Positions 1 through 53,877 of a stretch of DNA of 64,000 bases are shown piece after piece. The DNA comes from Lachnospiraceae bacterium (lineage in GTDB: Bacteria; Bacillota; Clostridia; Lachnospirales; Lachnospiraceae). The DNA lies in NCBI GenBank assembly GCA_024698285.1, contig JAILRJ010000044.1, positions 7,134 through 71,133 on the forward strand, in the 5' to 3' direction. Below the pieces are notes generated by a model. That model had not been told where the DNA came from. It made no database searches and worked only from the letters and a program-made list of their open reading frames with translations. The translations under genes were made by a program, and so were the position numbers. Each line of letters begins with the position of its first letter. Within the stretch, counting starts at the first letter, position 1.

Positions 1-664
1 ATATGTTCTTGAGATTCTGGTAGCAGAAATCTATGATCGATGTCCTGTCTTTGACCGGAAGTTCGTACAGCACTATTGTGTCGCACCCGACCATTTTTGC
101 CTCAAGGTCATCATCTTCATAAGACACTATGCCGCAGACCTCGTAGCGCTTCTCAAACGATGCGAACGCATCCGCGACCCTCTTTGCCTCATGCGTATCA
201 CCCGTAACGATCAGGCAGCGCTCCTTCGGATGTATCCAGAAGTAGAACTTCTCGCCCGCAAACGACATCAGCATGATAATGAGTATCTGTATTCCGAACA
301 CAAGGAAGAGAATACCTATGTTCTCGAGCCTGAACGTCGTGTTGTTGGCTTCGTTAGTTTTCATGATGGACAGTTCCAGATATGTCACAAGATCCGTGAA
401 AATGAGCGTTATCGATACCGAAAGCGCAACCTGTCCCCATTTCCTCCTTCCGGCATCGTACCTGCCGTAGATGAATGTTAGAAGGATCAGCATTATCACG
501 AATGTCGAGAGCGTTACAGCCGCCGTTCTCGAGAGTTTGATGATCTCGGGATTATCGATCGAGAACATCAAAAAGAACGTCGCAAGGCATGCGGCGTACA
601 TGACGGTCTCTATCAGAAACACTATGGAATGTTGAAATTTGGTGCAAAAATCATGTAATTTCAT
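1..664 (-). CDS. Polyprenyl-phosphate glycosylphosphotransferase (WcaJ/EpsE-like), N-terminal membrane and linker part only; the 3' end runs off the left edge
   Basis: Absent from the ORF track because it is open at the window edge. Reverse-complement reading from ATG 664-662 is stop-free to base 1: MKLHDFCTKFQHSIVFLIETVMYAACLATFFLMF...CLIVTGDTHEAKRVADAFASFEKRYEVCGIVSYEDDD... It has the same layout (several TM helices, then a Rossmann-like linker) as the N-terminus of the complete sugar transferase at 21571-22938. Its ATG abuts the TAA (665-667) of the upstream gene. The catalytic domain is not visible, so the call rests on architecture. Confidence 0.55.
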   Translation of the reverse strand, partial: MKLHDFCTKFQHSIVFLIETVMYAACLATFFLMFSIDNPEIIKLSRTAAVTLSTFVIMLILLTFIYGRYDAGRRKWGQVALSVSITLIFTDLVTYLELSIMKTNEANNTTFRLENIGILFLVFGIQILIIMLMSFAGEKFYFWIHPKERCLIVTGDTHEAKRVADAFASFEKRYEVCGIVSYEDDDLEAKMVGCDTIVLYELPVKDRTSIIDFCYQNLKNI

Positions 665-2128
665 TTACATTCCCTCATAAACTTCACGGATATATTCCTC
701 AAATCTCACATCTTTGTCATAGAGCATCGCATGCCTTACGCAGTCTTCCTTCGTATATGCAATGCCTTTTTGCGAGATGATCGTATCTATCGCAGCCACA
801 ACTCCCTGTACCGAATTGCGCTCCACGGAAATGCCGCACGAATCGTCAATCGATTCCGCACTTCCTCCCGATCTGTAAGTGATCACAGGAGTACCGCACG
901 CGAGCGCTTCGATATTGGTCGTCGGGAACGTATCTTCAAGTGTTAAATTGACGTATATGTCAGCCATGGAATAAAGTGCCGCAAGCTCTTCGGTGCTGTC
1001 CGTATGTCCGATACCGATTATCGATTCGGGAAGCGACGAGAGTTGCTCGTCATTAAGGCCGACAAGCACTATAACGCATCTCTCGCTGATGAGCTTGGAG
1101 AGATTGACGAACTGCATCAGTCCCTTTCTCTCGCGCCACGGATTGGCGACTCCGAGAAGAACGTTCTTGTTACGAAGGTTCAGGCTGTTTCTGAGTCTGA
1201 ATACAAGATTGTCATCCGTCCTCTCTTCGGCTATCGGATGGAACACCGACGTATCGATCCCCGTAGGGACGACTACCGTATGGTATTCCCCCATGAACGA
1301 CTGTTCCACACGGCTTTTGAGCCACTGTGACGGCGTCACGAGTGTGATATCTTCAAATCCCGTGAACAGTTCCTTTTTGTCGGCATAGTTTCTCTGCGAG
1401 TTGTCCTTTCCGACGGACTTCGGATACTCGGCGAGCTGCTCGCACGAATAGCATCCCGTAGTCCATTTCATGCATCCTATATATTCAAAATGGGAGCAGT
1501 GTCCCGTAAACGTCCAACAGTCATGCAGCGTCCAGATGATCCTGATATCGGTTTTTTTCAGGTATTCAAAAAGAACACGGATATTCAGGTAATATCCATG
1601 AACGTTATGAAGGTGGATTATATCCGGTTTGAATTCCTCGATCACATTTATGAACCCGACCGTTGCACGTTTCGAATAGAACCCGTGCCGATCCGTTATC
1701 CTCGACAGTCCGCCGTGGATATATACATCGAGATCCTGGCCGATCCTGTATCCGTTCATATACTCGGGATGACTGTCCCTTCCGTAGGCCACCATGCACT
1801 CGTATCCGTTTGCGGTAAGAGTATTGTAGAGCCCTTCGACAAGCCTTCCGACGGAGCCTGTACCGACTACCGTATTAACGAGCATGACCCTTCTGTTTTC
1901 AAGGTGGTTGAGGCTTCTTACCACCCTCTTTGCTTCCTTCGTGTACAGAAGATCGGGCTCCGGTTCGGACAGGTCCTGACCGATATAGGAATTCTCTATG
2001 TTATTGTCAAGCGAGATCACCGAGATGTCATTCTGCGCCATGATCATTTCCTGGCGTTCCCGCTCCAGTCGCTCCTGCTCGAGGCGTCTTGCTTCGGCAA
2101 GAGGATCGGTAATGTGTTTTCTTCTCAT
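665..2128 (-). CDS. Glycosyltransferase family 4 (GT-B) with an ~80-aa charged N-terminal extension
   Basis: 487-aa ORF. GT4-like core starts near MLVNTVVGTGSVGRLVEGL and has a Cys/His-rich segment HDCWTFTGHCSHFEYIGCMKWTTGCYSCEQ. The C-terminal half carries a sugar-nucleotide-binding pattern (FPTTNIEALACGTPVI). ATG at 2128 lies 6 nt after the upstream stop. Confidence 0.8.
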   Translation of the reverse strand: MRRKHITDPLAEARRLEQERLERERQEMIMAQNDISVISLDNNIENSYIGQDLSEPEPDLLYTKEAKRVVRSLNHLENRRVMLVNTVVGTGSVGRLVEGLYNTLTANGYECMVAYGRDSHPEYMNGYRIGQDLDVYIHGGLSRITDRHGFYSKRATVGFINVIEEFKPDIIHLHNVHGYYLNIRVLFEYLKKTDIRIIWTLHDCWTFTGHCSHFEYIGCMKWTTGCYSCEQLAEYPKSVGKDNSQRNYADKKELFTGFEDITLVTPSQWLKSRVEQSFMGEYHTVVVPTGIDTSVFHPIAEERTDDNLVFRLRNSLNLRNKNVLLGVANPWRERKGLMQFVNLSKLISERCVIVLVGLNDEQLSSLPESIIGIGHTDSTEELAALYSMADIYVNLTLEDTFPTTNIEALACGTPVITYRSGGSAESIDDSCGISVERNSVQGVVAAIDTIISQKGIAYTKEDCVRHAMLYDKDVRFEEYIREVYEGM

Positions 2129-2134
2129 ATATCT

Positions 2135-3796
2135 CTAGTTGTCGGTGTTCTCGTCCGTATCGTCGAGTATCAGTCTGATGACTCTCTCGTGCCCTTTTGA
2201 GAAATCCTTCTGAAGCTGGAGCCTTCTCATTTCTCTTCTCACATTCGGAGTGGACAGAAGCCATTCTATCGTCGACACAACCGTCTCGTCATCGGTCTCG
2301 TTTCCGATACCGAGGTTTATGAATCCGTTCTGTATGCCCGCGAAAACGTGCATCGCTTCACGGTCATTCTGTGCCAGTACTATAGCCGGAACTCCCATGC
2401 TCGCAAGCTCGTACACTGTACGTCCCTGACTCGTTATCGCAAGGTCCATCTTGCCCATATATGAGCTGACCCTTTTGACATCCTTGTGAACGAACACTCT
2501 GTCTTCCTCGCTCGTCGCTATCCTGTCGGCATAAGGGTATGCGAACCCGAGAAGGAAGTGGAAGTTGATATCGGGATTGGTCTTGTGAAGACGTTTGCAT
2601 ATCTTGTAAAGTCTTCCCGTCAGATCCGACGGATCAGCTCCTCCGAAGATCACGAGAACATTCTCGGCCTTCTCGGAGAATTCCTTGGGTCTTTCTTCCA
2701 AAAACTCGTCCCTGATGCAGAAATATTTACTTCCGTAATATTCGTTGTGAAGCTTGTCGCCCTTCTCATACAGGGCGTTTATTACGGCATCCGCGTACTT
2801 GGCTCCGGGACCTACGTCCTCGAAGTTAATGACGCGCTTTGCGTATTTAGTCACCATCAGCATATATTCGCTTGATGTATCGAGTATATCGTTAATAAGG
2901 ATATCAGGCTTCTCTTCGGCTAGCACCTTCTCAAAATGCGCCTCATCCCTGACCTTGATCACATTGAAGTTCGATTCCGTTATCTTCTCTATCCCGATGT
3001 CGGAATCTTCGGATGCCGCAAATACCACCTCATGGCCGGTAAGTTTGTAAGCAAGTGTAAGACATCTGTACACGTGCCCCATTCCGACCGATCTCTTTCC
3101 GACGGTACGGAACATGATCTTCTTGCGGCGAAGTATATTCTCACAGAGAACCCAGTCCGAGTATGTGTCTATATCAACCGCCTCGTCCTCGGCTATCTCG
3201 AATATGCTGACCTTCTTACCTATACGTCCTTCTGCGCTCACGCACTCTCTTCTCGTGATAAGGAATCCGCCGGTCTCCAGGTAGTTTGGCGGAAGCTCCT
3301 GCGAATTGAGACGCTTCTCATAGTTCTTGACGTATTCGCCCTTTTCGTTCACGCCCCATGACAGATGAGGTTTGTTGGTGGCAGAAAGAACAGTGTCGAA
3401 GTCGTGATTTTCGAAGTATTCGATCGCATCCCTGATCGTGGTGGATCTGAGCGTCGGGCTCGTTGCCTGCATCGTGATAACGATGTCGTATCTGATGCCC
3501 TTCTTCTCCTCCATGTAGCTGACCGCATGGAAGATAACGGGATCGAGCGTAACGGAATCGGTTGCAAGTTCCGCGGGTCTCGCTATGACCTCAACTCCGC
3601 GTTTTTGCACGATACCGCCGAGTTCCTCGTCGTCCGTCGATACGGCAACGTCAACATCCATGTGCATCGTTTCCCTGAGAGCCTTCGCATTATCGATGGA
3701 ATAAGCTATCAGCGGCTGTCCGCACATGATCCTGACGTTTTTTCTCGGTATTCTCTTGGACCCGCCTCTTGCGGGTATGACTATGAGCGTTTTCAT
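2135..3796 (-). CDS. Bifunctional fusion: CMP-nonulosonic acid cytidylyltransferase (NeuA/PseF-like) plus PseG-like UDP-sugar hydrolase domain
   Basis: 553 aa. The N-terminus MKTLIVIPARGGSKRIPRKNV...CGQPLIAYSI is the acylneuraminate cytidylyltransferase signature. From ~aa 235, FRTVGKRSVGMGHVYRCLTLAYKL matches the G-x-G-H-x-x-R-C-x-x-LA motif of PseG/SpsG-type GT28-like hydrolases, followed by GADPSDLT and QGRTVYELASMGVPAIVL. ATGA overlap with the upstream flippase stop. Confidence 0.8.
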   Translation of the reverse strand: MKTLIVIPARGGSKRIPRKNVRIMCGQPLIAYSIDNAKALRETMHMDVDVAVSTDDEELGGIVQKRGVEVIARPAELATDSVTLDPVIFHAVSYMEEKKGIRYDIVITMQATSPTLRSTTIRDAIEYFENHDFDTVLSATNKPHLSWGVNEKGEYVKNYEKRLNSQELPPNYLETGGFLITRRECVSAEGRIGKKVSIFEIAEDEAVDIDTYSDWVLCENILRRKKIMFRTVGKRSVGMGHVYRCLTLAYKLTGHEVVFAASEDSDIGIEKITESNFNVIKVRDEAHFEKVLAEEKPDILINDILDTSSEYMLMVTKYAKRVINFEDVGPGAKYADAVINALYEKGDKLHNEYYGSKYFCIRDEFLEERPKEFSEKAENVLVIFGGADPSDLTGRLYKICKRLHKTNPDINFHFLLGFAYPYADRIATSEEDRVFVHKDVKRVSSYMGKMDLAITSQGRTVYELASMGVPAIVLAQNDREAMHVFAGIQNGFINLGIGNETDDETVVSTIEWLLSTPNVRREMRRLQLQKDFSKGHERVIRLILDDTDENTDN

Positions 3797-5247
3797 CGAT
3801 CTTTACCCAAAAACCGCTTTTTTACATAATTTGCTAGCGTAATTATATCACGTCTGTTTATAATTGCAAAAACGGCAAATATCGCAACAGCAAGGATATA
3901 TCTTATTATCACGTCACGGATCGAATCACCGTACAGGTTCAGGAACAGAAGCCCCGTACCCATCATCACGATCATCGCAATGAACATGTATGCGTCATCA
4001 TAGACCTTCTCGCGAAGAACGAACCTGACCATAACAAAATGCATGACCATAAGAACGAGATAGCTCGCAAGTGTCGTATATGCGGCAGCTATATAGCCGT
4101 ACCGCGGTATGAACAGTGCGTTCAATATATAGTTGATACCGGCCGCGGCACATGATCCTACGGCTATGATCGGCGTCTTCTTTAAGAATATCTCCACGTT
4201 GACGTAGTTCGTATAGAAATACTGTGCCAGTGTTCCGAGCACTATCGGCGGTACAACAAACTTAGCCGTCCAGTACGTGTTGTTTGATATCGAAAGCAGC
4301 ATCAGCGCTTCCGGAGCCGCAACAATGAATGCGAACGACAGGAAACACCCGAGCATAACGAGCTTCTTCTGAATTCCTCTTATCTTCTCCCGTCCGCCCG
4401 CAAAAAGCGTTTCGTTAAACCACGGCAGCCATGCCTGTCCTATCGCGTTAGTAAATATCATCAAGAGCGTAGCAAAAGAATATCCGAATATGTACAATCC
4501 CGAATCCGCATCGCCGGCAATATCCTTGATCATTATCCTGTCCATCTGCGCCAGCAGTATGAGCGCGAGTGCATGCGGGATCATCGGCAGTCCGATCTTG
4601 AGCGCGTACGTCCAGTACTCTCTGTTGTAGAACACCTTTCCCTGCACTATAAAGCGGATGTAGAACACTATACCCATTATCGCCGTCGGGATTATGACAC
4701 CGAGTATCTTTCCGATGTATCTTGCATCCGAGAATACGAGCATCAGCGTGATCGACAGAGCCACCTGACCGACACACGTTATGACAGAGATCAGAATATT
4801 CTCTTTATACCGGTATTCGTACCTGCATTTCTGCATCATGTATTCCACGGACGGGGATACGCACAGGTATGCGAACAGACCCACGGCGAGCGGGACCTCA
4901 TAGTGGATCCACCCCGCAAGGGCTTCTCTGAATATGAACGCAAAAACGAGAAGTATGAGTCCGAACGAACTCGACAGTCCCTGAAGCGCGGACATATACT
5001 CATCGAACCTGTCGGCAAAATCAAGCTTTGCCCGTCCGATCGAATATACGACGCACAGACATGCAAAAACGTTAAAAACGTCTATCCATGAATTGTATGT
5101 ATTGGCCCGGCCGTAATCGGCCGTGGTCAGCATTCCGGTATATATAGGGGTTGTAATGATGGCAACGGCTCTTATCGATACATTGGCTATCGTGTACCAC
5201 ACACCCGACTTTACGACCTTATTGCCTTCCGATGCTGCACTATCCAT
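3793..5247 (-). CDS. wzx: Wzx-type oligosaccharide flippase (MOP superfamily), copy 1
   Basis: Polytopic membrane ORF. Its N-terminus VKSGVWYTIANVSIRAVAIITTPIYTGMLTTADYG is typical of polysaccharide flippases. I prefer the ATG at 5247 (MDSAASEGNK) over the track start at 5301, because it overlaps the upstream TAG by only 8 nt. Confidence 0.75.
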   Translation of the reverse strand: MDSAASEGNKVVKSGVWYTIANVSIRAVAIITTPIYTGMLTTADYGRANTYNSWIDVFNVFACLCVVYSIGRAKLDFADRFDEYMSALQGLSSSFGLILLVFAFIFREALAGWIHYEVPLAVGLFAYLCVSPSVEYMMQKCRYEYRYKENILISVITCVGQVALSITLMLVFSDARYIGKILGVIIPTAIMGIVFYIRFIVQGKVFYNREYWTYALKIGLPMIPHALALILLAQMDRIMIKDIAGDADSGLYIFGYSFATLLMIFTNAIGQAWLPWFNETLFAGGREKIRGIQKKLVMLGCFLSFAFIVAAPEALMLLSISNNTYWTAKFVVPPIVLGTLAQYFYTNYVNVEIFLKKTPIIAVGSCAAAGINYILNALFIPRYGYIAAAYTTLASYLVLMVMHFVMVRFVLREKVYDDAYMFIAMIVMMGTGLLFLNLYGDSIRDVIIRYILAVAIFAVFAIINRRDIITLANYVKKRFLGKDR

Positions 5248-6316
5248 TAACGAACATATTCTCCTGTAAGATCGTATCGTCCTCGATATCGACTGCGGCA
5301 ACGCATCCGGCTATTTTCTCCATACGTTCCGGCGATATTCCGGTACCCGGACGTTTGAATGTCAGCATTTCCTTTGTGATAACGCTTCCCTTCGGAATCC
5401 TGCACGCGGATACAACCGACCTTCTTGCGTTTTTCCTGGCGGCGCTTTCTGTCTCAAGGCTCACCAGATCCGCACTGCCTCTGAGCATATCCATTCTCTC
5501 TATCGACGAGAGTATCGCACGGGCATCATCGGGATCCATTGCGTGGTAGTGGTCGTTGCCTTTAAGCGTTTTGTCGAGAGTAAAGTGCTTCTCGACAAGC
5601 TGTGCACCGAGATTGTATGCGCACTTGATGACGTCGCATTCCGGCGTCGGTTTTGTATGATCCGAATATCCGATGTACAGATCGGGGAACTTTTCGGCAA
5701 GCGTTGCGATCTTGAGAAGATTTGCATCCTCAAGCGGCGTGGGGTATTCGAGCACACAGTGAAGGAGCGTTATCGGAGCATCGGTATTGCGTCTTATCGC
5801 GCTTACCGCCCGTTCTATCTCATCCTCGTTCGAGGCTCCGACAGACAGCAGGATCGGCTTGTTCTTCTTCGCCTGATACTCTATGAACGGAATGTTTGAA
5901 AGATCCGATGAAGATATCTTGTAAACGTTCATCAGTTCATTGAGATAGTCGGCCGACTCTATGTCAAACGCGGTCGAGAGGAATTCGATCCCGACGCTGT
6001 CGCTGTACTCTTTAAGTTCTTTGTACTCGTCATACCCGAACGAGTCGAACTTGGTGAACAGCTCATACTGCGATCTCGTCGGCTCTTCCGTGATATCCCA
6101 GTAATAAGGCGATGCCTTGGCCGCGAGAGTTCCGGCTTTGTACGTCTGGAACTTGACCGCATGTATGCCGGCTTCCTTCGCTTCCTTGATCATAAGTTTG
6201 GCGGCATCCATGTTAGAAATGCCGCGTACTTTTGCAATATCATAATAATTGACGCCTATCTCGGCTATAAGGACGAACCTGCCTTCGGCAAGTCTCCTCA
6301 TTATGGTACTTTCCAT
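5240..6316 (-). CDS. NeuB-family nonulosonic acid synthase (NeuB/PseI/LegI/SpsE-like) with C-terminal SAF domain
   Basis: 358 aa. Motifs: AVKFQTYK, ILLSVGAS, LLHCVLEYPTP, GYSDHT, VEKHFTLDK...GNDHYHAMDP, and a C-terminal SAF-like segment RRSVVSACRIPKGSVITKEMLTFKRPGTGI. Good SD (GAGGTG) before ATG 6316. Confidence 0.85.
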   Translation of the reverse strand: MESTIMRRLAEGRFVLIAEIGVNYYDIAKVRGISNMDAAKLMIKEAKEAGIHAVKFQTYKAGTLAAKASPYYWDITEEPTRSQYELFTKFDSFGYDEYKELKEYSDSVGIEFLSTAFDIESADYLNELMNVYKISSSDLSNIPFIEYQAKKNKPILLSVGASNEDEIERAVSAIRRNTDAPITLLHCVLEYPTPLEDANLLKIATLAEKFPDLYIGYSDHTKPTPECDVIKCAYNLGAQLVEKHFTLDKTLKGNDHYHAMDPDDARAILSSIERMDMLRGSADLVSLETESAARKNARRSVVSACRIPKGSVITKEMLTFKRPGTGISPERMEKIAGCVAAVDIEDDTILQENMFVNG

Positions 6317-6329
6317 GTTTCACCTCATA

Positions 6330-7976
6330 TCAGGGAACCTTATCATCGGGCATATCCGATATAAAGTAGCCCGCATCCAACGCCTTTTGGTACCTCTCAT
6401 ATCCTTTTTCGTAAAAGACAATGAGCTCGTTTAACATATCGTCGAACTCCTGAGTCCTCTCCCTCTTTCCCGAGAATATCTCATCGGCCTGATCCATGAG
6501 TTCGAATATCTTTACCTCGGAGCCCGCACGCTTGACCGCCTCAACATAGCTTGCCGCCGAATGAAGCGAATCAACCGGACCGAACGAGAGGATCGCATCG
6601 CGAAGATCATCGAATGATGTTATCCTCGTTATTCCGTCAATGAGCGCGAACGGAACGTTTCCGAATATTATCGAGCGTTTCCCGAGAAGCGCCGCCTCGT
6701 ATGCCGCCGTACCCGTTATCGTGATAACACCTTTTGCGTTCACGATCCACGGTTTGGGATCCTTGTAATAGTTGATCTGAACAAGGCGGACGTTGTGTAT
6801 CTCTTTAACCTTTTTATAGAACTCAAATCCTCTCTCGCCGAGCATCGCCTGATGTTCCTTGACATACAGTTTCCAGCCGATCGGGAGTGCTTTTGATACC
6901 TGCTCAATGAGATTGAGCTCATCAACATAGTACGAAGCCTTGACGAACACAGATGACTCCGGGATCAGATGAAGCGGCATGAACACATAGTCCTCGCCCT
7001 CAACAGGATCCTCGAAATATTTGTTCTTCCCGTACAGATATCTCTTCTTGAGTTCCTCTTCAAGATAGTAACGGATATACGGAAGCGACGGCGCGTAGAG
7101 CATCGGGCTCTTCTTCTTGAGTTTGAGGTTATGCTTCCTGATATCCATATCATAGAAATACTCGAGCTTTCCGTGCATAACCCGCGCGATCCAGATGAGT
7201 GAATCCCTCTCGTACTTGGATGTTACGCTCCCGGCAAACTCGCGGTTCATAATGGAGGACTCACGTCTGTAATTCTCGACGTATTCTATGCTCTCTCTTA
7301 TAGCACTGTCGGGATGTGATTTTATCTCATTGAACAGATGGACAAAATACGGATCTATCCCGAACGCATTCTGGAAGCTCGGATACTTGTAATAACCAAA
7401 CTTCGAATACTCGATCGTCATACACGGTATCTTCTTCCTGTAACATACCTCGCAGAGGATCGTGCGCTGAAGTTCCGCATTATCCATGTCAAATATCACG
7501 TCGGGCCGAAACTCCTCGATCAGTCCGATTATCTTCTTGTAGTTAAGTTCCAGCCAGTAAAGGTTCTCCGCATAGCTCGTGACCTTCCAGTACATTCGCC
7601 AGTGATAATGCCTCGTGTTCATCTGAGAGCTCATCAGCTGCATGTTCAGATTCTTGTAGTGGCTGTACTTCTCGTCTATCATCGACAGATATTCAAGATC
7701 ATAAGGTGCATCGGACTCCTTGAGGCCCTTTACGAACTGCTCGCATATATCCCTCACGTCGTAGATCTTAACGTCGGGCTCGAGCTTCTTGAACTCGTAG
7801 TACGTATGCTCGTTGTAATATGTCTTGTTGTAACTGCATTCGCTCGACATTATGAAAAATGCCGCGACCTCATTGTCCTCCTTGAGCTTTTCGGCCAGGA
7901 ACCACAACGGTTTGCAGTAGGTCTCACGACATATCATCAGTATTCTCTTGTTCTTGAATATAGAGTCTTTAACCAT
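6330..7976 (-). CDS. Capsule_synth-like (KpsS/KpsC-type) capsular polysaccharide biosynthesis protein; candidate ulosonic-acid transferase
   Basis: 548 aa, soluble. The segment YVFMPLHLIPESSVFVKASYY...LPIGWKLYVKEHQAML...VITITGTAAYEAALLGKRSIIFG resembles the conserved core of capsule-synthesis (KpsS/KpsC) retaining transferases. Family recognised by eye only. Confidence 0.5.
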   Translation of the reverse strand: MVKDSIFKNKRILMICRETYCKPLWFLAEKLKEDNEVAAFFIMSSECSYNKTYYNEHTYYEFKKLEPDVKIYDVRDICEQFVKGLKESDAPYDLEYLSMIDEKYSHYKNLNMQLMSSQMNTRHYHWRMYWKVTSYAENLYWLELNYKKIIGLIEEFRPDVIFDMDNAELQRTILCEVCYRKKIPCMTIEYSKFGYYKYPSFQNAFGIDPYFVHLFNEIKSHPDSAIRESIEYVENYRRESSIMNREFAGSVTSKYERDSLIWIARVMHGKLEYFYDMDIRKHNLKLKKKSPMLYAPSLPYIRYYLEEELKKRYLYGKNKYFEDPVEGEDYVFMPLHLIPESSVFVKASYYVDELNLIEQVSKALPIGWKLYVKEHQAMLGERGFEFYKKVKEIHNVRLVQINYYKDPKPWIVNAKGVITITGTAAYEAALLGKRSIIFGNVPFALIDGITRITSFDDLRDAILSFGPVDSLHSAASYVEAVKRAGSEVKIFELMDQADEIFSGKRERTQEFDDMLNELIVFYEKGYERYQKALDAGYFISDMPDDKVP

Positions 7977-8941
7977 CAGGGAAATCTCTCCAGTGTTGAA
8001 GCCGCTTCGGCCTGGCGGGTCTTCGTGTATGCCGCAAGGATCGCCGGTGCGCGAAGCGCCATAAATACCTTTATCTTAAGTGAGCGCGATACAAGCGGGT
8101 TCTTTGTCTTCGAAAGCGCTCTTACCTTATCCCGGTACCGGTTCAGATCGTCCGCATCGGGTTCGCCTCCGGCAAGTTCGTTCTGTATCGCCGTCACATA
8201 CTCGTAGAGCATGAAGTTGTCCGTCTCATTCGCAAGTTCGGGATGATTTTTTCTCAGGAACTCCTCCATAAGAACATCTGCCTCAATGTTCTTTCTGACC
8301 ATACCGCTTCTCTTCGAATTGCTCCCGGACCTCTCTCGGAAATGATACATCGGGGTCGGATCGTACACCACCTTGTCGGCCTTTGACAGAAGCGCATCTA
8401 CAACTATCCTGTCCTCAACCGTGATATCGGTTCTGAACGTCAGCCCTTCGAATATCTTTCTCGAATAGAGCTTGTCCCAGCAGTGCAGGAAAAATCCGTC
8501 GTGCCCGAGCGTCACCGCAACGGCTTCGGCGCCCGTCATAACCCTCGGGGATGCCGCCTCGTCATGAAGAGTCGTGTTCACGTACTCGTAAAATCGTCCG
8601 CATACCGCTATGTCAGCCGAATACTTCTCCATATTTCCGAGCATACTCTCGAACATCTCAGGCTCAATGTAATCGTCGGAATCGACAAACCCCAGATAAT
8701 CACCCGTCACTTCCGCCATCCCGCGGTTTCTCGCATCAGCGATACCGTTTGCCGGGCAGGTTATAAGTTTGATACGGGAATCTTCACCGGCCCATTTCCT
8801 GCAGATCTCCTCGGATCTGTCCGCACCGTGCCCGCATACTATGATAAGCTCGATATCCCTGTATGTCTGCGCAAGTACGCTCTTTATGCTCTCTTCGACG
8901 TAGCGTTCCACGTCGTATACGATCATGATGATACTTATCAT
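7976..8941 (-). CDS. Glycosyltransferase family 2 (GT-A)
   Basis: MISIIMIVYDVERYVEESIKSVLAQTYRDIELIIV...ARNRGMAEVTGDYLGFVDSDDY is the classic GT2 N-terminal fold with a DSD (DxD) motif. ATGA overlap with the upstream gene. Confidence 0.85.
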   Translation of the reverse strand: MISIIMIVYDVERYVEESIKSVLAQTYRDIELIIVCGHGADRSEEICRKWAGEDSRIKLITCPANGIADARNRGMAEVTGDYLGFVDSDDYIEPEMFESMLGNMEKYSADIAVCGRFYEYVNTTLHDEAASPRVMTGAEAVAVTLGHDGFFLHCWDKLYSRKIFEGLTFRTDITVEDRIVVDALLSKADKVVYDPTPMYHFRERSGSNSKRSGMVRKNIEADVLMEEFLRKNHPELANETDNFMLYEYVTAIQNELAGGEPDADDLNRYRDKVRALSKTKNPLVSRSLKIKVFMALRAPAILAAYTKTRQAEAASTLERFP

Positions 8942-10026
8942 CTCAATGCTCCGTTTACCGCTTCAAGATAAGCGTATCCTTTGCCCTCGTCGGGCTCTAT
9001 GTAGGCGCCTTCTCCCCATTCGTTCCATGCGTTCAGATAAACGAAATCGGCTTTGCGCCCCTCAACTTTCGTCCTTAATGTCCTAAGCGTCTCTTCGGTC
9101 AGTTTCGGGGATGTGCCCGTATATACGAGGCCCTTGTATCCTCTTCTCGGCGTGTTGTCCCAGTCGGGTATCACTCCGGGGAATTCGTTTTCGGCATAAT
9201 CACGCTGCGCGATCGCTTTCATGATCCGCTTGCCGCTTACGCGCCTTTCAAGTATATATCCTCTTTTTCCGCCGAATATCTTATTCCTTACCGTCCTTGC
9301 GAACGTTCCGAGATTGTATTGAAGTTTCCCGAATGCTCCGAGCCCGAATTTAAGCGTATAGCCGGGTTCGAAATAGTAATATGCGTCCACAAGACCGGAT
9401 CTTTCTTCCGAGCCTGCCGCTGTCTTTCCGGATATGACGTACACCCCGTCAAAACCGGCCTCCCCGGCCCACTCGTCAAATGCCTTTCTCATCTCGGCAA
9501 AGCACGGTATGTCAAACGTCTTGTATATCTGCCACACGGGACGGTTGTCGACTTTTATGTACCTGCTGTCGCGAAAATATGGCAGGAGGTAATCGAAATA
9601 CCGTCTCCAGTCTTCCCTGTTCCCGTATTCCTGTGCGATAAGCACTTTATCCGACAGGCCGTACCATGTCCTGGTCCACGTTTCGTTGGCCCAGCATATA
9701 TTGAACCTTATATCTATCTCGGGATGTTCAAGAAGTGTCTGAAGCGGCCCGGCCATCAGCGTCTTGCCGTTAAAATAATACTGGTACAGGCAGAAGCCGT
9801 ATATACCGTACTTCCTTGCAAGCTCGGCCTGATGCGTCAGCGTTTTGACAGCGTCCTTATCAAGATCGTAGTACTCGCCTCCGAGCGGCACCCTGGGCTG
9901 TCTGTGACCCTTATAGAGAGGCACTGCACGTTTGACCGCGACCCACTCCGTATATCCTTTGCCCCACCACTCGTCGTTCTCCGGGAACGTATGATACTGG
10001 GGCAGGTACATGCACATTACTTTCAT
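8938..10026 (-). CDS. WbsX-like / GH99-like domain protein
   Basis: N-terminus MYLPQYHTFPENDEWWGKGYTEWVAVKRAVPLYKGHRQPRVPL matches the highly conserved start of the Glyco_tran_WbsX family. Confidence 0.8.
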   Translation of the reverse strand: MKVMCMYLPQYHTFPENDEWWGKGYTEWVAVKRAVPLYKGHRQPRVPLGGEYYDLDKDAVKTLTHQAELARKYGIYGFCLYQYYFNGKTLMAGPLQTLLEHPEIDIRFNICWANETWTRTWYGLSDKVLIAQEYGNREDWRRYFDYLLPYFRDSRYIKVDNRPVWQIYKTFDIPCFAEMRKAFDEWAGEAGFDGVYVISGKTAAGSEERSGLVDAYYYFEPGYTLKFGLGAFGKLQYNLGTFARTVRNKIFGGKRGYILERRVSGKRIMKAIAQRDYAENEFPGVIPDWDNTPRRGYKGLVYTGTSPKLTEETLRTLRTKVEGRKADFVYLNAWNEWGEGAYIEPDEGKGYAYLEAVNGALR

Positions 10027-10048
10027 TGATCGGTACTCCGGGTGACGG

Positions 10049-11179
10049 TCACTGTTTCATCCAGACGGTCCTGTTCACGATATGCGTATAGCTTTGAATG
10101 AGCTTGACGACTTTGACGGACACATTCTCGTCGGCGTAATCTTCGGCTTCGACGACCTTCTCGCCGTTCTCGTACATTGAGGTGGCAAGATCGATGGCCT
10201 GACAAACGTCATCGCTTTTGATCCCGCCGATGACGATCGTACCTTTGTCTAGGACTTCGGGTCTCTCGGTAGAGGTACGTATGAGTACCGCCGGAAAATC
10301 AAGCATAGCCGACTCTTCCGACAAAGTCCCGGAATCCGACATTACGCAGTATGCGTTCATCTGAAGTTTGTTGTAGTCAAGAAAACCGAACGGTTTCATA
10401 TTCGACACGAGAGGATCGAACTTGAAGTTCCTCTTCTCGATAAACTTCGCGCTTCTCGGATGTGTGGAATAGATGACCGGCATCTTATACTTCTGCGCAA
10501 CGATATTGACCGCATTCATAAGATCCATGAAATTGTCTTCAAGGTCTATGTTCTCTTCCCTGTGTGCCGACAGCAGTATATACTTCTTCGGCTCAAGGTT
10601 CAGCCTTGTGAGAACATCGCTTGCCTCTATTCTGTCCATTGAAGCCTTTATGACTTCCTTCATCGGAGATCCCGTTACGAATATCGTCTTGCCGTCGATG
10701 CCTTCCGACAGGAGATATCTGCGGGAATGCTCGGTATACGGCATATTGATGTCTGAAATGTGATCGACGATCTTGCGGTTGATCATCTCGGAAACATTCC
10801 AGTCCCAGCAACGGTTCCCCGCTTCCATATGGAAGATGGGTATCTTAAGTCTCTTGGCGCTTATTGCCGAGAGAGCCGAATTGGTATCTCCGAGAACAAG
10901 GAGTGCATCGGGCCTCTCTTTTTCAAGAAGCTCGTAAGATCTTGCGATTATATTGCCCATGGTCTCTCCGAGGTTTGCGCCCGCTGCCTCGAGAAAATGA
11001 TCCGGACGCCTCAGGTTCAGATCCTCAAAGAATATCTCGTTGAGCGTATAGTCATAGTTCTGTCCGGTATGCACAAGGATATGATCAAAATACCTGTCGC
11101 AGCATTTGATCACCTCGGACAGCCTGATTATCTCCGGACGCGTGCCGACTATCGTACATACTTTCAGTTTGTCAGACAT
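10049..11179 (-). CDS. capG: UDP-N-acetylglucosamine/UDP-L-PneNAc 2-epimerase, CapG/FnlC/WbjD type
   Basis: KLKVCTIVGTRPEIIRLSEVI...HILVHTGQNYDYTLNEIFFEDLNLRRPDHFL...GDTNSALSAISAKRLKIPIFHMEAGNRC is the WecB-family non-hydrolysing epimerase pattern, of the type found next to capE/capF. I prefer ATG 11179 (SD GAGGTG) over the GTG at 11185. Confidence 0.85.
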   Translation of the reverse strand: MSDKLKVCTIVGTRPEIIRLSEVIKCCDRYFDHILVHTGQNYDYTLNEIFFEDLNLRRPDHFLEAAGANLGETMGNIIARSYELLEKERPDALLVLGDTNSALSAISAKRLKIPIFHMEAGNRCWDWNVSEMINRKIVDHISDINMPYTEHSRRYLLSEGIDGKTIFVTGSPMKEVIKASMDRIEASDVLTRLNLEPKKYILLSAHREENIDLEDNFMDLMNAVNIVAQKYKMPVIYSTHPRSAKFIEKRNFKFDPLVSNMKPFGFLDYNKLQMNAYCVMSDSGTLSEESAMLDFPAVLIRTSTERPEVLDKGTIVIGGIKSDDVCQAIDLATSMYENGEKVVEAEDYADENVSVKVVKLIQSYTHIVNRTVWMKQ

Positions 11180-11181
11180 AT

Positions 11182-12294
11182 TCACACCTCTTCGCGAAAC
11201 GTATCTCCCTTATCGGGATCGAATACCTCGTTGACCCACATAACGGTCACCATATCTTCGTTGCCTATGTTCTCGATGTTATGGGTATATCCGCACGGAA
11301 TGTCTACGACCTCGAGCTTATTGCCCGAAACGTGGTATTCCGTGATCTTGTCGCTGCCTATCCTGCGAAGCCTTATCACGCCTTCGCCCTTAACGACAAG
11401 GAATTTCTCGTTCTTCGTATTGTGCCAGTGATTGCCCTTGACGATTCCCGGATGCGAGATGTTCACCGACACCTGGCCTCTGTCGGGAGTCTTTAGAAAT
11501 TCCGTGAACGATCCTCTATCATCCTCGCGCATAACGAGCGGATACAGGAAATCATCCTCCGGTATATAGCTTAAATATGTGCTGTACAGTTTCTTGGAAA
11601 AGCCGTCCGAAAGATCCGGAAGCGACAAGTCCCGTCTCATCTCCGGAAACGACTTTATGAGATTTGCCACGTCACCGAGAAGGACGTCATGCACGCACGG
11701 AACATATCCGTATCCGTCCTTAACGTGCTGCTTATCCTCCATGCAAAGGAGCAGTTCATCAACGACATCATCTATGTATACAAGATGCAGGAGAGTAACC
11801 GGATCGTTGACCGTTATCGGAAGACCTCTTGCTATGTTGTGGCAGAACGTTGCGACCGCCGAATTGTAATTGGGGCGGCACCATTTACCGAACACGTTCG
11901 GGAATCTGTATATCACTGCCTTCCCGCCGTGCCTGTCGGAAAACTCCCTGACAAACTCCTCGCCGGCACGTTTGCTTATACCGTACGGATTATCAAGAGC
12001 GGCCTGGATCGAAGACGACACAACGATCTTCGCCCCGGGATTACCGACACTCTCAAGTGTATCAAGAAGGGTCTTCGTAAAATCACGATTCCCCTCCATG
12101 AATTCTTCTTCCCTCTCGGGCCTGTTGACGCCCGCGAGATGATAAACGATATCGGCATCCTTCGCATACTCCGACAGCTTTGCCGGATCGGTGTCGATAT
12201 CGTAAGAAAATACCGTATCCTCTCCCAGGCATGCCAGACGCTGTATTAAGTTTTTGCCGATAAATCCGCCTGCTCCCGTTACGAGGATATTCAA
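11182..12294 (-). CDS. capF: CapF/FnlB/WbjC-type bifunctional reductase/epimerase (SDR N-domain plus cupin C-domain)
   Basis: NILVTGAGGFIGKNL Rossmann start. The C-terminal cupin-like part reads GQVSVNISHPGIVKGNHWHNTKNEKFLVVKGEG. The likely start is TTG 12294-12292 (giving MNILVTGAGG), preceded by GGGAGA and overlapping the capE TGA. Confidence 0.8.
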   Translation of the reverse strand: MNILVTGAGGFIGKNLIQRLACLGEDTVFSYDIDTDPAKLSEYAKDADIVYHLAGVNRPEREEEFMEGNRDFTKTLLDTLESVGNPGAKIVVSSSIQAALDNPYGISKRAGEEFVREFSDRHGGKAVIYRFPNVFGKWCRPNYNSAVATFCHNIARGLPITVNDPVTLLHLVYIDDVVDELLLCMEDKQHVKDGYGYVPCVHDVLLGDVANLIKSFPEMRRDLSLPDLSDGFSKKLYSTYLSYIPEDDFLYPLVMREDDRGSFTEFLKTPDRGQVSVNISHPGIVKGNHWHNTKNEKFLVVKGEGVIRLRRIGSDKITEYHVSGNKLEVVDIPCGYTHNIENIGNEDMVTVMWVNEVFDPDKGDTFREEV

Positions 12295-15246: not shown

Positions 15247-15293
15247 TAAACCAAAACTACCGTATTCATTTTTTATTTCAACAGTTCATTATA

Positions 15294-17877: not shown

Positions 17878-17878
17878 A

Positions 17879-22938: not shown

Positions 22939-22944
22939 AACAGA

Positions 22945-24710: not shown

Positions 24711-24712
24711 AT

Positions 24713-25771: not shown

Positions 25772-25775
25772 CTTC

Positions 25776-38753: not shown

Positions 38754-38796
38754 ATCTGCCTCCTTATTAACTGTGAACTGTTACCGGCTGACCTTA

Positions 38797-45921: not shown

Positions 45922-45923
45922 AA

Positions 45924-46784: not shown

Positions 46785-46785
46785 T

Positions 46786-48917: not shown

Positions 48918-49512
48918 TCTTCGGTCCCCCTTCGCTCACGCCCTCTGCCTTTGCCACCGCAAAGAACGTTCCGAAAAAGCACTTTAAATCGAACGCAAAA
49001 CTTAATTTTTTGACATACTCGCCGTCATATGCCGCCTTGACGTCGATCGGAAGTTCATCTCTTCCGTTTATCTGAGCCCATCCGGTAAGTCCCGGCTTCA
49101 CGTCGTTCGCTCCGTACTTGTCCCGCTCATCGAGAAGATCATACTGATTCCACAGAGCGGGGCGCGGTCCGACAAAACTCATCTGTCCGGCAAATATGTT
49201 GAAAAGCTGGGGTATCTCATCGATAGAATATTTCCTGATCGCCTCCTGAAAAGGTGACAGGAGCGATGCGGCGTTCTTGAGTTCATGCGTCGGTGTATCC
49301 TTCGGCGCGCTCACCGGCATCGAACGGAACTTTATTATCATGAAATGGGATCTGTGTATCCCGACACGTTTCTGTTTGAAGAACACCGGTCCCGGTGAGT
49401 CGATCTTGATCATCACGGCGACAACGAGCATCGGTATCGCGGCAACTATGATACCTATCCCCGACAGTACGATATCGATGATCCTCTTAATGACGTTTTT
49501 GTAAATGCTCAT
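48910..49512 (-). CDS. Small monotopic phosphoglycosyl transferase (PglC/CapM/WbaP-C-terminal type)
   Basis: 200 aa: [44 protein letters not shown]...FMIIKFRSM...[21 protein letters not shown]...[14 protein letters not shown] overlap with the uvrA stop. Confidence 0.9.
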
Positions 49513-53874: not shown

Positions 53875-53877
53875 AGA

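What the first reader, a model, noticed from the sequence alone, without database searches (positions are those of the whole stretch)
2135..6316. Nonulosonic-acid branch (NeuB-family synthase plus cytidylyltransferase::PseG-like fusion) with no aminotransferase or N-acetyltransferase in the operon
Seen: a NeuB-family synthase (5240-6316) and a single 553-aa protein that fuses a NeuA/PseF-type cytidylyltransferase to a PseG-type UDP-sugar hydrolase domain (GMGHVYRCLTLA motif). Established: pseudaminic acid synthesis needs PseB, PseC (aminotransferase), PseH (acetyltransferase), PseG, PseI and PseF. PseB catalyses the same inverting 4,6-dehydration as CapE/FnlA, which is present at 12291-13328. 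Seen: no DegT/PseC-like aminotransferase and no GNAT or left-handed-helix acetyltransferase occur anywhere in this 29-kb operon, nor a NeuC-type hydrolysing epimerase distinct from capG. Inference, option 1: the missing steps are encoded elsewhere or just left of the window. Inference, option 2: the PseG-like domain hydrolyses a CapE/F/G-derived UDP-6-deoxy-L-HexNAc and the synthase condenses it with PEP. That would give a mono-amino 9-deoxy nonulosonic acid; as far as I recall this is the fusaminic-acid type, which is poorly understood biosynthetically.
Basis: partly seen in the sequence, partly recalled or inferred. Interest (0 to 1): 0.7.

Follow-up and report, generated by a model that had tools for sequence, protein, structure and literature searches.

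The report
Nonulosonic-acid cassette lacking amination genes
A rumen Lachnospiraceae surface-polysaccharide locus carries a widespread but uncharacterised three-activity cassette for a sialic-acid-like nine-carbon sugar that works without the usual amino-group-adding enzymes, so its product is probably a mono-amino sugar whose structure is still unknown.

Summary
Window 5240-6316 encodes a NeuB-family synthase. Window 2135-3796 encodes a 553-aa fusion of a CMP-nonulosonate cytidylyltransferase with a PseG-like UDP-sugar hydrolase, and the catalytic His is conserved. No DegT-type aminotransferase or N-acetyltransferase is detectable in the 64-kb window, in any frame, or in 9.3 kb left of it in a 99.4%-identical strain.

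The fusion itself is common: 616 clusters at 50% identity score E<=1e-30. It almost always sits next to a synthase from one distinct NeuB-family clade. That clade is separate from NeuB and PseI and is sister to the SpsE/Leg-type group.

Nine distant loci carry fusion plus synthase with no 4,6-dehydratase or aminotransferase nearby. One lineage fuses a GalE-type 4-epimerase onto the protein. I therefore read the pair as a self-contained, amination-free cassette that makes a mono-amino nonulosonic acid.

In Lachnospiraceae, CapE and CapG always accompany the cassette, even where CapF and CapD are missing. Distant relatives lack both. A cultured isolate carrying the module exists, so the product can be determined directly.

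The parts
2135..3796 (-). 553-aa bifunctional protein: CMP-nonulosonate cytidylyltransferase fused to a PseG-like UDP-sugar hydrolase
   Evidence: Pfam and NCBIfam hits. PDB sequence hits to NeuA enzymes at 56-88 bits and to C. jejuni PseG. The same architecture is found in more than 150 clusters at 50% identity.
3131..3796 (-). Cytidylyltransferase domain (residues 1-222; IPARGGSKRIPRKN motif)
   Evidence: TIGR03584 PseF 123 bits over residues 5-219; CTP_transf_3 76 bits. V. cholerae NeuA 6ifd 88 bits.
2351..3121 (-). PseG-like hydrolase domain (residues 226-482). The putative catalytic His240 codon is at 3077-3079.
   Evidence: TIGR03590 PseG 137.7 bits, model positions 2-277 of 280. The His aligns with the GFGH His of 3hbm and is invariant in alignment A1.
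5240..6316 (-). NeuB-family PEP-condensing nonulosonate synthase of a distinct, fusion-associated clade
   Evidence: The NJ tree places it with all fusion-linked synthases, apart from NeuB and PseI and sister to the SpsE/Leg-type group. The sub-clade signature is GVNYYDIA in place of GVNH(E/N)G.
3793..5247 (-). Wzx-type flippase between synthase and fusion. It overlaps both neighbours (8 nt and 4 nt).
   Evidence: Polysacc_synt 63 bits. Called as 484 aa in relatives. Kept at this position in all module variants examined.
6330..7976 (-). 548-aa conserved protein of unknown family with a GT-B fold. It is a candidate nonulosonate transferase or an epimerase-like enzyme.
   Evidence: No Pfam or NCBIfam hit. 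550 homologues, hypothetical proteins in every source that names them, nearly all from Lachnospiraceae. AF2 model pLDDT 85.5. The Foldseek top 50 are all UDP-GlcNAc 2-epimerase-family structures, but with TM-scores of only 0.2-0.35. Profile comparisons were inconclusive.
12291..13328 (-). CapE/FnlA orthologue: UDP-GlcNAc inverting 4,6-dehydratase / 5-epimerase
   Evidence: FnlA 535 bits against PseB 320 bits. S. aureus Cap8E 3vvb 522 bits.
11182..12309 (-). CapF orthologue: 4-reductase with a C-terminal cupin domain
   Evidence: Polysacc_synt_C 168 bits and WbcJ-type reductase 401 bits. Cap5F 2zkl 445 bits. Absent from variant L114-116.
10049..11185 (-). CapG orthologue: non-hydrolysing UDP-HexNAc 2-epimerase
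   Evidence: S. aureus CapG 7ya2 597 bits against MnaA 5enz 137 bits. wecB model 227 bits, NeuC model 73 bits.
13321..15246 (-). CapD/PglF-like membrane-anchored UDP-GlcNAc 4,6-dehydratase; first gene of the module
   Evidence: Polysacc_synt_2 413 bits plus CoA_binding_3. Absent upstream of CapE in L112 and L114-116.
7976..10026 (-). Two glycosyltransferases: GT2 at 7976-8941 and a WbsX-family enzyme at 8938-10026
   Evidence: Conserved in all module variants.
665..2128 (-). GT4 glycosyltransferase immediately downstream of the fusion
   Evidence: Glycos_transf_1 and Glyco_transf_4. It follows the fusion in all relatives examined.
1..664 (-). 5' part of a Bac_transf (polyprenyl-phosphate sugar-phosphate transferase) gene, cut by the window edge
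   Evidence: L026 is 99.4% identical to the window and continues with a 455-aa Bac_transf gene directly after the GT4.
15288..15316 (-). Promoter-like site (TTGCAA-17-TATAAT with an upstream TG) overlapping the 3' end of the Wzy ORF and the Wzy/CapD gap. It is a possible start of the CapD-to-GT4 transcription unit.
   Evidence: Consensus scan only. This is not evidence of function.

Best explanation
Layer 1 (what I commit to). The synthase (5240-6316) and the fusion protein (2135-3796) form a self-contained terminal cassette for a nonulosonic acid that needs no 4-amination or N-acetylation step.

Proposed steps, all inferred from family membership rather than shown:
1. The PseG-like domain hydrolyses a UDP-2-acetamido sugar to the free sugar, using the conserved His as base.
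2. The NeuB-family enzyme condenses that sugar with PEP to a 5-acetamido-3,5-dideoxy(-9-deoxy?)-non-2-ulosonic acid.
3. The N-terminal domain of the fusion activates the product with CTP.
4. A transferase adds the CMP-sugar to an undecaprenyl-linked repeat unit. That unit also uses CapD- and CapE/F/G-derived sugars. It is exported by the Wzx that sits inside the cassette. The transferase may be the GT-B protein at 6330-7976 or the GT4 at 665-2128.

The product is therefore a mono-amino nonulosonic acid, not pseudaminic or legionaminic acid.

Layer 2 (the input sugar, unresolved).
- I slightly favour a UDP-HexNAc from the general pool, at about 0.35. UDP-GalNAc is the best-hinted candidate because one lineage fuses a GalE-type 4-epimerase to the same protein. 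UDP-ManNAc or UDP-GlcNAc are alternatives. This route would give an isomer of, or the same sugar as, Neu5Ac.
- A CapE-derived 6-deoxy-L-HexNAc gets about 0.30.
For: Distribution of the pair:
- The fusion architecture is widespread and conserved: 616 clusters at 50% identity with E<=1e-30, and more than 150 full-length matches down to 32% identity.
- In nine metagenome loci with a full-length fusion, the adjacent gene is a synthase of the same clade. These score 294-520 bits to the window synthase, against 109-139 bits for context-defined PseI.
- None of these nine loci has a CapE/PseB/PglF-type dehydratase or a DegT gene within 7-10 kb. A Pfam count over 83 neighbouring ORFs shows no DegT among the recurrent families.

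Contrast with canonical loci:
- Canonical Pse loci in the same data set (L090, L052, L069) carry PseB, PseC, PseF, PseG and PseI, unfused.

Fused-domain (Rosetta-stone) evidence:
- P0136/P0403 (847 aa) is a GalE-type SDR fused to the cytidylyltransferase and the PseG-like domain.
- The SDR has the motifs SSAAVYG and YALSK. Its best PDB hit is UDP-glucose 4-epimerase 4zrm (234 bits), followed by 6dnt and 6wj9/6wjb. PDB labels those two only as NAD-dependent epimerase/dehydratases; I recall them as UDP-GlcNAc 4-epimerases.
- It sits next to a same-clade synthase in a small locus with no dehydratase or aminotransferase.

Other support:
- Sialyltransferase-family genes lie beside the cassette in L033 (GT52, 55 bits) and L035 (polyST-like, 35 bits).
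- The window and its left flank have no DegT or hexapeptide-repeat acetyltransferase homologue in any frame. No GNAT family appeared in the Pfam scans of the called ORFs either.
- A PseG-family enzyme working with an SpsE-type synthase outside the Pse pathway has a precedent in B. subtilis (PMC7439481).
Against: - No biochemical data exist for any member of this synthase clade or for the fusion.
- Two unfused clade members (L047, L050) do sit beside a DegT aminotransferase. The clade is therefore not uniformly amination-free.
- B. subtilis shows that an early pathway gene can be unlinked from the late genes (from memory, not checked). Aminotransferase and acetyltransferase genes elsewhere in this genome therefore cannot be excluded.
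- In the Lachnospiraceae lineage, CapE and CapG are always adjacent, even where CapF and CapD are absent. That argues for a CapE-linked input rather than a pool sugar.
- The metagenome loci give only about 10 kb of context on each side.
- All domain scores fall below the NCBIfam equivalog cut-offs, so the chemistry is inferred by family, not by orthology.
Confidence: 0.6

Rival explanations
1. CapE, with or without CapF and CapG, makes a UDP-6-deoxy-L-HexNAc. This serves both as a glycosyl donor and, after hydrolysis by the PseG-like domain, as the substrate of the synthase. The product would be a 5-acetamido-3,5,9-trideoxy-nonulosonic acid, the same class as fusaminic acid but probably with a different configuration.
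For: - CapE and CapG orthologues accompany the cassette in every Lachnospiraceae variant examined whose upstream region was retrieved: L028, L030, L112, L114-116 and L118. L031 shows CapF and CapG at its locus edge.
- Both stay intact, at 88-89% identity, in the variant that has lost CapF and CapD. This suggests a role independent of UDP-L-FucNAc synthesis.
- The native substrate of PseG derives from the same inverting dehydratase chemistry as CapE. This is established for PseB and CapE and is my own knowledge.
- The F. nucleatum 25586 O-antigen contains D-QuiNAc, 6-deoxy-L-AltNAc and the mono-amino 9-deoxy fusaminic acid. That composition parallels CapD + CapE... + cassette (PMC13014188).
Against: - Without CapF, the L114-type locus encodes no 4-reductase in the retrieved locus, yet its synthase (82% identical) and fusion (86%) are no more diverged than in loci that have CapF.
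- The nearest synthases outside the module, L041 (70% identity) and L033 (65%), have no CapE/F/G within 10 kb. Seven other distant fusion loci also lack them.
- CapE/F/G here are close orthologues of the S. aureus enzymes (445-597 bits). Making UDP-L-FucNAc for one of the four glycosyltransferases is a sufficient role for them.
- The synteny is seen only within one related lineage, so it may simply reflect a shared repeat-unit structure.
Confidence: 0.3
2. The cassette is the late half of an ordinary pseudaminic or legionaminic acid pathway. The aminotransferase and N-acetyltransferase would be encoded elsewhere in the genome, for example in a flagellin glycosylation island. CapE or CapD would serve as the dehydratase.
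For: [quoted passage not shown]
- In B. subtilis the Leg dehydratase gene spsM is, as I recall, unlinked from spsC-G (own knowledge; the pathway itself is in PMC7439481).
- Clade members L047 and L050 lie next to DegT genes.
- The organism is flagellated: rod genes lie at 37935-39570.
Against: - No DegT or hexapeptide-repeat acetyltransferase homologue (tblastn), and no GNAT or hexapeptide family in the Pfam scans of the called ORFs, in the 64-kb window or in 9.3 kb to its left.
- Nine independent distant loci also lack them.
- The synthase lies outside the context-defined PseI clade (26-31% identity) and outside the Leg-context group (35-37%).
- All scores are below the equivalog cut-offs.
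- The triple fusion pairs the hydrolase with a 4-epimerase, not with amination enzymes.
Confidence: 0.15
3. The PseG-like domain is not a hydrolase feeding the synthase. It could be a GT-B glycosyltransferase. Alternatively, the pathway makes a non-amino acid such as Kdn from a neutral sugar.
For: - Only a weak Pfam Glyco_tran_28_C signal (E=0.018).
- One source names a homologue 'glycosyltransferase'.
- All scores are below the equivalog cut-offs.
Against: - The match covers the whole PseG model and the catalytic His is invariant.
- The domain is consistently fused or adjacent to the two enzymes that flank the hydrolase step in known pathways.
- The synthase keeps the RPG arginine that aligns with the corresponding Arg of N. 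meningitidis NeuB. I recall that residue contacting the N-acetyl group of the substrate; this is my recollection, not a test.
Confidence: 0.07

Closest known systems
Bacillus subtilis SpsE / SpsF / SpsG (late steps of the UDP-linked legionaminic acid pathway, PMC7439481)
   Same: It has the same three activities: a NeuB-family synthase, a cytidylyltransferase and a PseG-family protein, encoded together in a Firmicute. SpsE is the best solved-structure match of the window synthase (1vli, 141 bits). The SpsE/Leg-type group is the sister of the window clade.
   Different: SpsF and SpsG are separate proteins. The pathway needs the aminotransferase SpsC and the acetyltransferase SpsD, and the product is a 5,7-diamino sugar. 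The window synthase is only 32% identical to SpsE and carries an insertion in the GVNH(E/N)G motif.
Pseudaminic acid pathway PseB-PseC-PseH-PseG-PseI-PseF (C. jejuni / H. pylori)
   Same: It uses a PseG-type UDP-sugar hydrolase with the same catalytic His, a PseF-type cytidylyltransferase and a NeuB-family synthase. A CapE/PseB-type inverting dehydratase lies in the same locus.
   Different: There is no PseC and no PseH. The synthase is outside the PseI clade (26-31% identity to context-defined PseI). PseF and PseG are fused. All model scores are below the equivalog cut-offs.
NeuC-NeuB-NeuA sialic acid pathway
   Same: No amination steps are needed, and the product is a mono-amino 5-acetamido nonulosonic acid. 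Sialyltransferase-family genes (GT52, polyST-like) lie next to related cassettes.
   Different: There is no NeuC-type hydrolysing 2-epimerase; a PseG-type hydrolase stands in its place. The synthase is 33% identical to N. meningitidis NeuB and belongs to another clade.
[quoted passage not shown]
   Same: It is the only described class of mono-amino 9-deoxy nonulosonic acid. It occurs in a repeat unit with D-QuiNAc and a 6-deoxy-L-HexNAc (PMC13014188), which mirrors the CapD + CapE... + cassette gene content.
   Different: None of the papers found describes its biosynthetic genes, so no sequence comparison was possible. By my own reasoning, CapF/CapG products (L-talo, L-galacto) would give a different configuration from the L-altro precursor that fusaminic acid requires.
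Staphylococcus aureus Cap5/8 D-E-F-G (UDP-D-FucNAc / UDP-L-FucNAc synthesis)
   Same: The window's CapD-CapE-CapF-CapG block has the same gene order (S. aureus order from memory), and CapE/F/G are close orthologues (CapE 522, CapF 445, CapG 597 bits to the solved S. aureus proteins).
   Different: As far as I know, the S. aureus capsule locus has no nonulosonic acid genes. Here the block is joined to the cassette, and variants lacking CapD and CapF exist.

Membership tests
Pseudaminic acid biosynthesis (PseBCHGIF) | PLP-dependent 4-aminotransferase PseC (DegT family) | tested here: not met
   No DegT family in the Pfam scans of the locus or the rest of the window. No six-frame tblastn hit with five DegT/PseC seeds in the window or the 18-kb L026.
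Pseudaminic acid biosynthesis (PseBCHGIF) | N-acetyltransferase PseH | tested here: not met
   No GNAT or hexapeptide family in the Pfam scans. No tblastn hit with two PseH-position proteins or three hexapeptide proteins. The tblastn seeds are weakly conserved, so this part rests mainly on the Pfam scans.
Pseudaminic acid biosynthesis (PseBCHGIF) | PseI-type synthase | tested here: not met
   TIGR03586 scores 222.7 bits against a 340.25 cut-off. The tree places the protein outside the context-defined PseI clade, at 26-31% identity.
Pseudaminic acid biosynthesis (PseBCHGIF) | PseG UDP-sugar hydrolase with a catalytic His | tested here: inconclusive
   There is a full-length match to TIGR03590, but at 137.7 bits against a 153.55 cut-off. 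The His is conserved and invariant. Substrate specificity is unknown.
Pseudaminic acid biosynthesis (PseBCHGIF) | PseB inverting 4,6-dehydratase | tested here: inconclusive
   The dehydratase in the locus is a CapE/FnlA orthologue (FnlA 535 bits against PseB 320 bits with a 407.75 cut-off; Cap8E 522 bits). It is reported to perform the same first reaction (own knowledge).
Sialic acid biosynthesis (NeuC-NeuB-NeuA) | Hydrolysing UDP-GlcNAc 2-epimerase NeuC | tested here: not met
   The only Epimerase_2 gene is a CapG orthologue (7ya2, 597 bits). The NeuC model scores 73 bits against a 235.9 cut-off. The unknown protein at 6330-7976 has an epimerase-like GT-B fold but no sequence-level match.
Sialic acid biosynthesis (NeuC-NeuB-NeuA) | NeuB-type N-acetylneuraminate synthase | tested here: not met
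   TIGR03569 scores 296.6 bits against a 399.65 cut-off. The protein is 33% identical to N. meningitidis NeuB and sits in a separate clade.
Legionaminic acid biosynthesis, B. subtilis Sps type | SpsC aminotransferase and SpsD acetyltransferase | tested here: not met
   Same searches as for PseC and PseH.
Legionaminic acid biosynthesis, B. subtilis Sps type | SpsE / SpsF / SpsG-type late enzymes encoded together | tested here: inconclusive
   All three activities are present, but SpsF and SpsG are fused. The synthase is sister to SpsE, not within its group (32% identity). No SpsG sequence was available for comparison.
Fusaminic-acid-type (mono-amino 3,5,9-trideoxy) nonulosonic acids | Chemical structure of the product; the biosynthetic genes are not described | not testable with these tools
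   None of the papers found describes the genes.
UDP-L-FucNAc pathway CapE/CapF/CapG | Three consecutive orthologues of the S. aureus enzymes | tested here: met
   Hits of 522, 445 and 597 bits to the solved S. aureus proteins across their full length, in the same gene order.

The most novel reading that the evidence does not exclude
The fusion-plus-synthase pair would define a fourth, amination-free route to nonulosonic acids: UDP-HexNAc, then a PseG-type hydrolase, then a dedicated NeuB-clade synthase, then CMP activation. Its product would be a sugar not yet described. One candidate is a Neu5Ac stereoisomer built from GalNAc, suggested by the GalE fusion. The other is a new 3,5,9-trideoxy isomer built from a CapE-derived L-sugar. 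It would be displayed on the surface polysaccharides of abundant rumen and gut Lachnospiraceae and of many other bacteria.
Probability: 0.4. Interest if true: 0.75.

Novelty: new variant of a known kind. Interest (0 to 1): 0.55.

Why it matters
Nonulosonic acids shape how bacterial surfaces are seen by hosts, phages and lectins such as Siglecs. Current genome-based prediction of their type recognises only the Neu, Leg and Pse gene sets.

The cassette described here is very common. It covers hundreds of 50%-identity clusters and several hundred near-identical copies in rumen metagenomes. It is auto-annotated as a pseudaminic acid hydrolase, yet it lacks the genes that make pseudaminic acid.

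If its product is a mono-amino sugar, many 'Pse' annotations are wrong, and a new sialic-acid-like epitope may be widespread in gut commensals. It would also offer the first genetic handle on the poorly understood mono-amino 9-deoxy (fusaminic) class, or on a NeuC-independent route to sialic-acid isomers.

A cultured isolate (GCA_900168235.1) carries the module, so the question can be tested directly.

Tried and rejected
It returned only relatives of 67% identity or less, not the window's own genome. The left flank therefore rests on a 99.4%-identical MAG contig that ends about 9.3 kb out.
- A 44-sequence fusion alignment was too diverse for the locus scan. A 12-sequence alignment worked.
- I tested the idea that the 357-aa SDR left of the window is PseB. 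It is a GDP_Man_Dehyd/RmlB-type enzyme followed by an NTP_transferase, so I rejected it.
- I tested the idea that CapG could be a housekeeping MnaA that makes UDP-ManNAc. It is a close CapG orthologue (597 bits against 137 for MnaA), so this is unlikely.
- Assigning the 548-aa unknown protein failed. It has no Pfam or NCBIfam hit. The fold search gives only a low-TM resemblance to 2-epimerases. hhalign against CapG, polyST-like and fusion profiles shows only the generic GT-B C-terminal motif.
- The plasmid collection holds only canonical, unfused Pse loci at 25-35% identity.
- Cluster look-ups gave names for one of ten fusion representatives, a Clostridium sp.. No Fusobacterium link could be made.
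- By eye, the 300-aa protein in L120 resembled Cst-II/Maf-type transferases. A PDB sequence search found nothing, so I make no claim.
- Literature searches found no paper on the fusion, on this synthase clade, or on fusaminic acid biosynthesis.
- Promoter and terminator scans were at background level.

Full report
**Observation**

The region lies in a long run of minus-strand polysaccharide genes. The organism is a flagellated Firmicute: the window also holds CdaA, YbbR, MreB and flagellar rod genes. All close relatives are rumen or gut Lachnospiraceae MAGs.

- Window 5240-6316 encodes a NeuB-family synthase: Pfam NeuB 249 bits plus SAF.
- Window 2135-3796 encodes a 553-aa protein with two domains. 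Residues 5-219 match PseF/CTP_transf_3. Residues 226-482 match the whole PseG model.
- The motif GMGHVYRCLTLA is present. Its His aligns with the GFGH His of C. jejuni PseG.
- All NCBIfam scores fall below the equivalog cut-offs: PseF 123 against 206, PseG 138 against 154, NeuB 297 against 400, PseI 223 against 340.
- The upstream genes are close orthologues of S. aureus CapE, CapF and CapG (522, 445 and 597 bits to the solved proteins). A CapD/PglF-like dehydratase precedes them.

**Absence of amination genes**

- Pfam scans of all sizeable ORFs across the locus and most of the window found no DegT aminotransferase, GNAT or hexapeptide acetyltransferase.
- A six-frame tblastn of the full 64 kb used five DegT/PseC seeds, two PseH-position proteins and three hexapeptide acetyltransferases. 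It found nothing at E<=0.01.
- The genes from 665 to 15246 abut or overlap, so no gene is hidden between them.
- A MAG contig 99.4% identical to window 1-8671 extends 9.3 kb further left. It carries Bac_transf, GT2, two GT4, Wzx, a UDP-sugar dehydrogenase, YdjC, an RmlB-type dehydratase and an NTP_transferase, and again no aminotransferase.
The rest of the genome could not be searched.

**The fusion is common**

- The protein has 3634 homologues with E<=1e-10 among the candidates scored. The best 120 are all 76-99% identical and about 550 aa long.
- In the library clustered at 50% identity, 616 representatives score E<=1e-30. More than 150 match full-length down to 32% identity.
- The His is invariant in a 44-sequence sample.

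**The Lachnospiraceae module and its variants**

- Relatives with 77-94% identical fusions keep the order (CapD)-CapE-CapF-CapG-(GT)-WbsX-GT2-unknown(~540 aa)-NeuB-Wzx-fusion-GT4-Bac_transf.
- One of these, L112, is a cultured isolate, GCA_900168235.1.
- A variant found on 22 contigs from several samples (L114-116) lacks both CapD and CapF cleanly. It keeps CapE (88% identical), CapG (89%), the same glycosyltransferase set and the cassette.
- This variant cuts both ways. The cassette does not need CapF in cis. Yet CapE and CapG stay intact without CapF, which hints at a CapF-independent role.

**Distant contexts**

- A metagenome scan returned loci that I annotated with my own ORF calls and phmmer seeds.
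- In nine loci with a full-length fusion (L033-L037, L039-L041, L043), the adjacent gene is a synthase scoring 294-520 bits to the window synthase.
- None of the nine has a CapE/PseB/PglF-type dehydratase or a DegT gene within 7-10 kb. A Pfam census of 83 neighbouring ORFs agrees.
- Canonical Pse loci from the same scan (L090, L052, L069) show unfused PseB-PseC-PseF-PseG-(PseH)-PseI. Their PseI scores only 109-139 bits to the window synthase.
- Sialyltransferase-family genes sit next to the cassette in L033 (GT52) and L035 (polyST-like).
- Two unfused members of the clade (L047, L050) do have an adjacent DegT plus a DUF4910 protein. The clade is therefore not uniformly amination-free.

**Phylogeny of the synthase**

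- An NJ tree of 54 NeuB-family sequences was labelled by gene context and included N. meningitidis NeuB and B. subtilis SpsE. It puts the window synthase in a distinct clade holding all fusion-linked synthases (43-82% identity).
- That clade is sister to the SpsE/Leg-context group (32-40% identity). It is separate from NeuB (33%) and from context-defined PseI (26-31%).
- The window belongs to a sub-clade with an 8-residue insertion and a His-to-Tyr change in the GVNH(E/N)G motif.
- Its nearest relatives outside the Lachnospiraceae module, L041 (70%) and L033 (65%), have no CapE/F/G nearby.

**A fused-domain (Rosetta-stone) clue**

- One lineage (P0136/P0403, 847 aa) adds an N-terminal SDR to the fusion.
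- The SDR has the Ser/Tyr/Lys pattern of 4-epimerases, not the dehydratase motif.
- Its best solved relatives are UDP-glucose 4-epimerase 4zrm (234 bits), then 6dnt and 6wj9. PDB labels those two only as NAD-dependent epimerase/dehydratases; I recall them as UDP-GlcNAc 4-epimerases.
- The next gene is a same-clade synthase, 52% identical to the window's. The small locus holds no dehydratase or aminotransferase.
- This suggests that in that lineage the hydrolase substrate is the 4-epimerase product, plausibly UDP-GalNAc.
- By my own stereochemical reasoning, D-GalNAc shares the C2-C4 configuration of the Pse precursor 2,4-diacetamido-2,4,6-trideoxy-L-altrose. A PseG-type enzyme acting on it is therefore chemically reasonable. 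This is inference, not a test.

**Interpretation**

I commit, at about 0.6, to reading the synthase plus fusion as a self-contained, amination-free cassette that yields a CMP-activated mono-amino nonulosonic acid for a Wzx/Wzy-type heteropolysaccharide.

The input sugar is open:
- A pool UDP-HexNAc, about 0.35. Support comes from the distant loci, the GalE fusion, and the CapF-less variant with an undiverged cassette.
- A CapE-derived 6-deoxy-L-HexNAc, about 0.30. Support comes from the invariable CapE/CapG linkage in this lineage. There is also a chemical precedent. The F. nucleatum 25586 repeat unit contains D-QuiNAc, 6-deoxy-L-AltNAc and fusaminic acid (PMC13014188).

A standard Pse or Leg product made with unlinked amination genes keeps about 0.15. 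The B. subtilis Sps pathway shows that a PseG-family protein can work in a Leg pathway (PMC7439481). As I recall, its dehydratase gene lies elsewhere in the genome.

**The unknown 548-aa protein (6330-7976)**

- It is conserved with the module, and among the sources that name it, it is almost only in Lachnospiraceae.
- Its AF2 model is confident (pLDDT 85.5) and has a GT-B fold.
- The 50 best PDB matches are all UDP-GlcNAc 2-epimerase-family structures, including NeuC and CapG. However, TM-scores are only 0.2-0.35 and profile comparisons are uninformative.
- It may be the nonulosonate transferase or an epimerase-like enzyme. I leave this open.

**Novelty and limits**

I found no paper describing the fusion, this synthase clade or the genes for fusaminic acid. 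The system is best filed as a new variant of known nonulosonic acid pathways.

Every enzymatic step is inferred from family membership. Contexts in metagenome loci are limited to about 10 kb per side. The tree is a simple distance tree without support values. No whole genome could be searched.

Noticed in passing
L120 3037-5580 and L121 1541-4084 (proteins P0136/P0403): An 847-aa triple fusion: a GalE-type 4-epimerase SDR, a cytidylyltransferase and a PseG-like hydrolase. It is followed by a same-clade NeuB gene in a minimal locus without a dehydratase or aminotransferase.
   Followed up: partly
window 6330-7976: A conserved 548-aa protein with no family assignment. The AF2 model is confident, and its nearest solved folds are UDP-GlcNAc 2-epimerases (including NeuC and CapG) at low TM-score. 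Invariant Asp, Glu and His residues are listed for alignment A4. Whether they lie at epimerase-like positions is my by-eye impression and was not checked.
   Followed up: partly
L114, L115, L116 (1574-3738): A module variant on 22 contigs in which CapD and CapF are cleanly absent. CapE and CapG remain intact and adjacent, and no 4-reductase is visible in the locus.
   Followed up: partly
window 5240-6316 (synthase residues ~22-35): The synthase sub-clade that includes the window replaces the conserved GVNH(E/N)G motif with GVNYYDIA plus an 8-residue insertion. The whole fusion-linked clade shares an SPxYWD motif.
   Followed up: no
window 15294-29219: Upstream of the module lies a second and possibly third glycan gene set. 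It has two Wzy_C-domain genes plus a weak third, a Wzx, several GT2/GT4 genes, an internal Bac_transf (21571-22938), DUF6077 (24713-25771) and four membrane-like ORFs without family hits. The '29-kb operon' is therefore composite. Together with the left flank there are at least three Wzx genes in about 40 kb.
   Followed up: no
window 44791-49512 and 52351-56093: There is a further small glycan locus (GT1, GT2, GT4, an unknown gene and a short 200-aa Bac_transf) directly upstream of uvrA. An AlgX-like SGNH protein, an MBOAT acyltransferase and a GT2 are wedged between uvrA and uvrB.
   Followed up: no
L117 3716-8288 and L112 7274-8938: Foreign genes are inserted inside the module in some relatives. 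In L117, a transglutaminase, an unknown gene and a MoxR ATPase lie between NeuB and Wzx. In L112, a RecQ helicase lies between WbsX and GT2.
   Followed up: no
L047 and L050: Unfused members of the same synthase clade sit with a DegT aminotransferase, a separate cytidylyltransferase and a DUF4910/DUF2172 aminopeptidase-like protein. In L047 the PseG-like protein carries an unassigned ~200-aa N-terminal extension.
   Followed up: partly
L041 6634-8624: Two xylose-isomerase-like TIM-barrel (AP_endonuc_2) genes lie next to the synthase of the closest non-module relative. Their role is unknown.
   Followed up: no
window 15288-15316 (minus strand): A near-consensus extended -10 promoter-like site lies in the short gap before CapD. 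It could mark the start of the CapD-to-GT4 unit.
   Followed up: no
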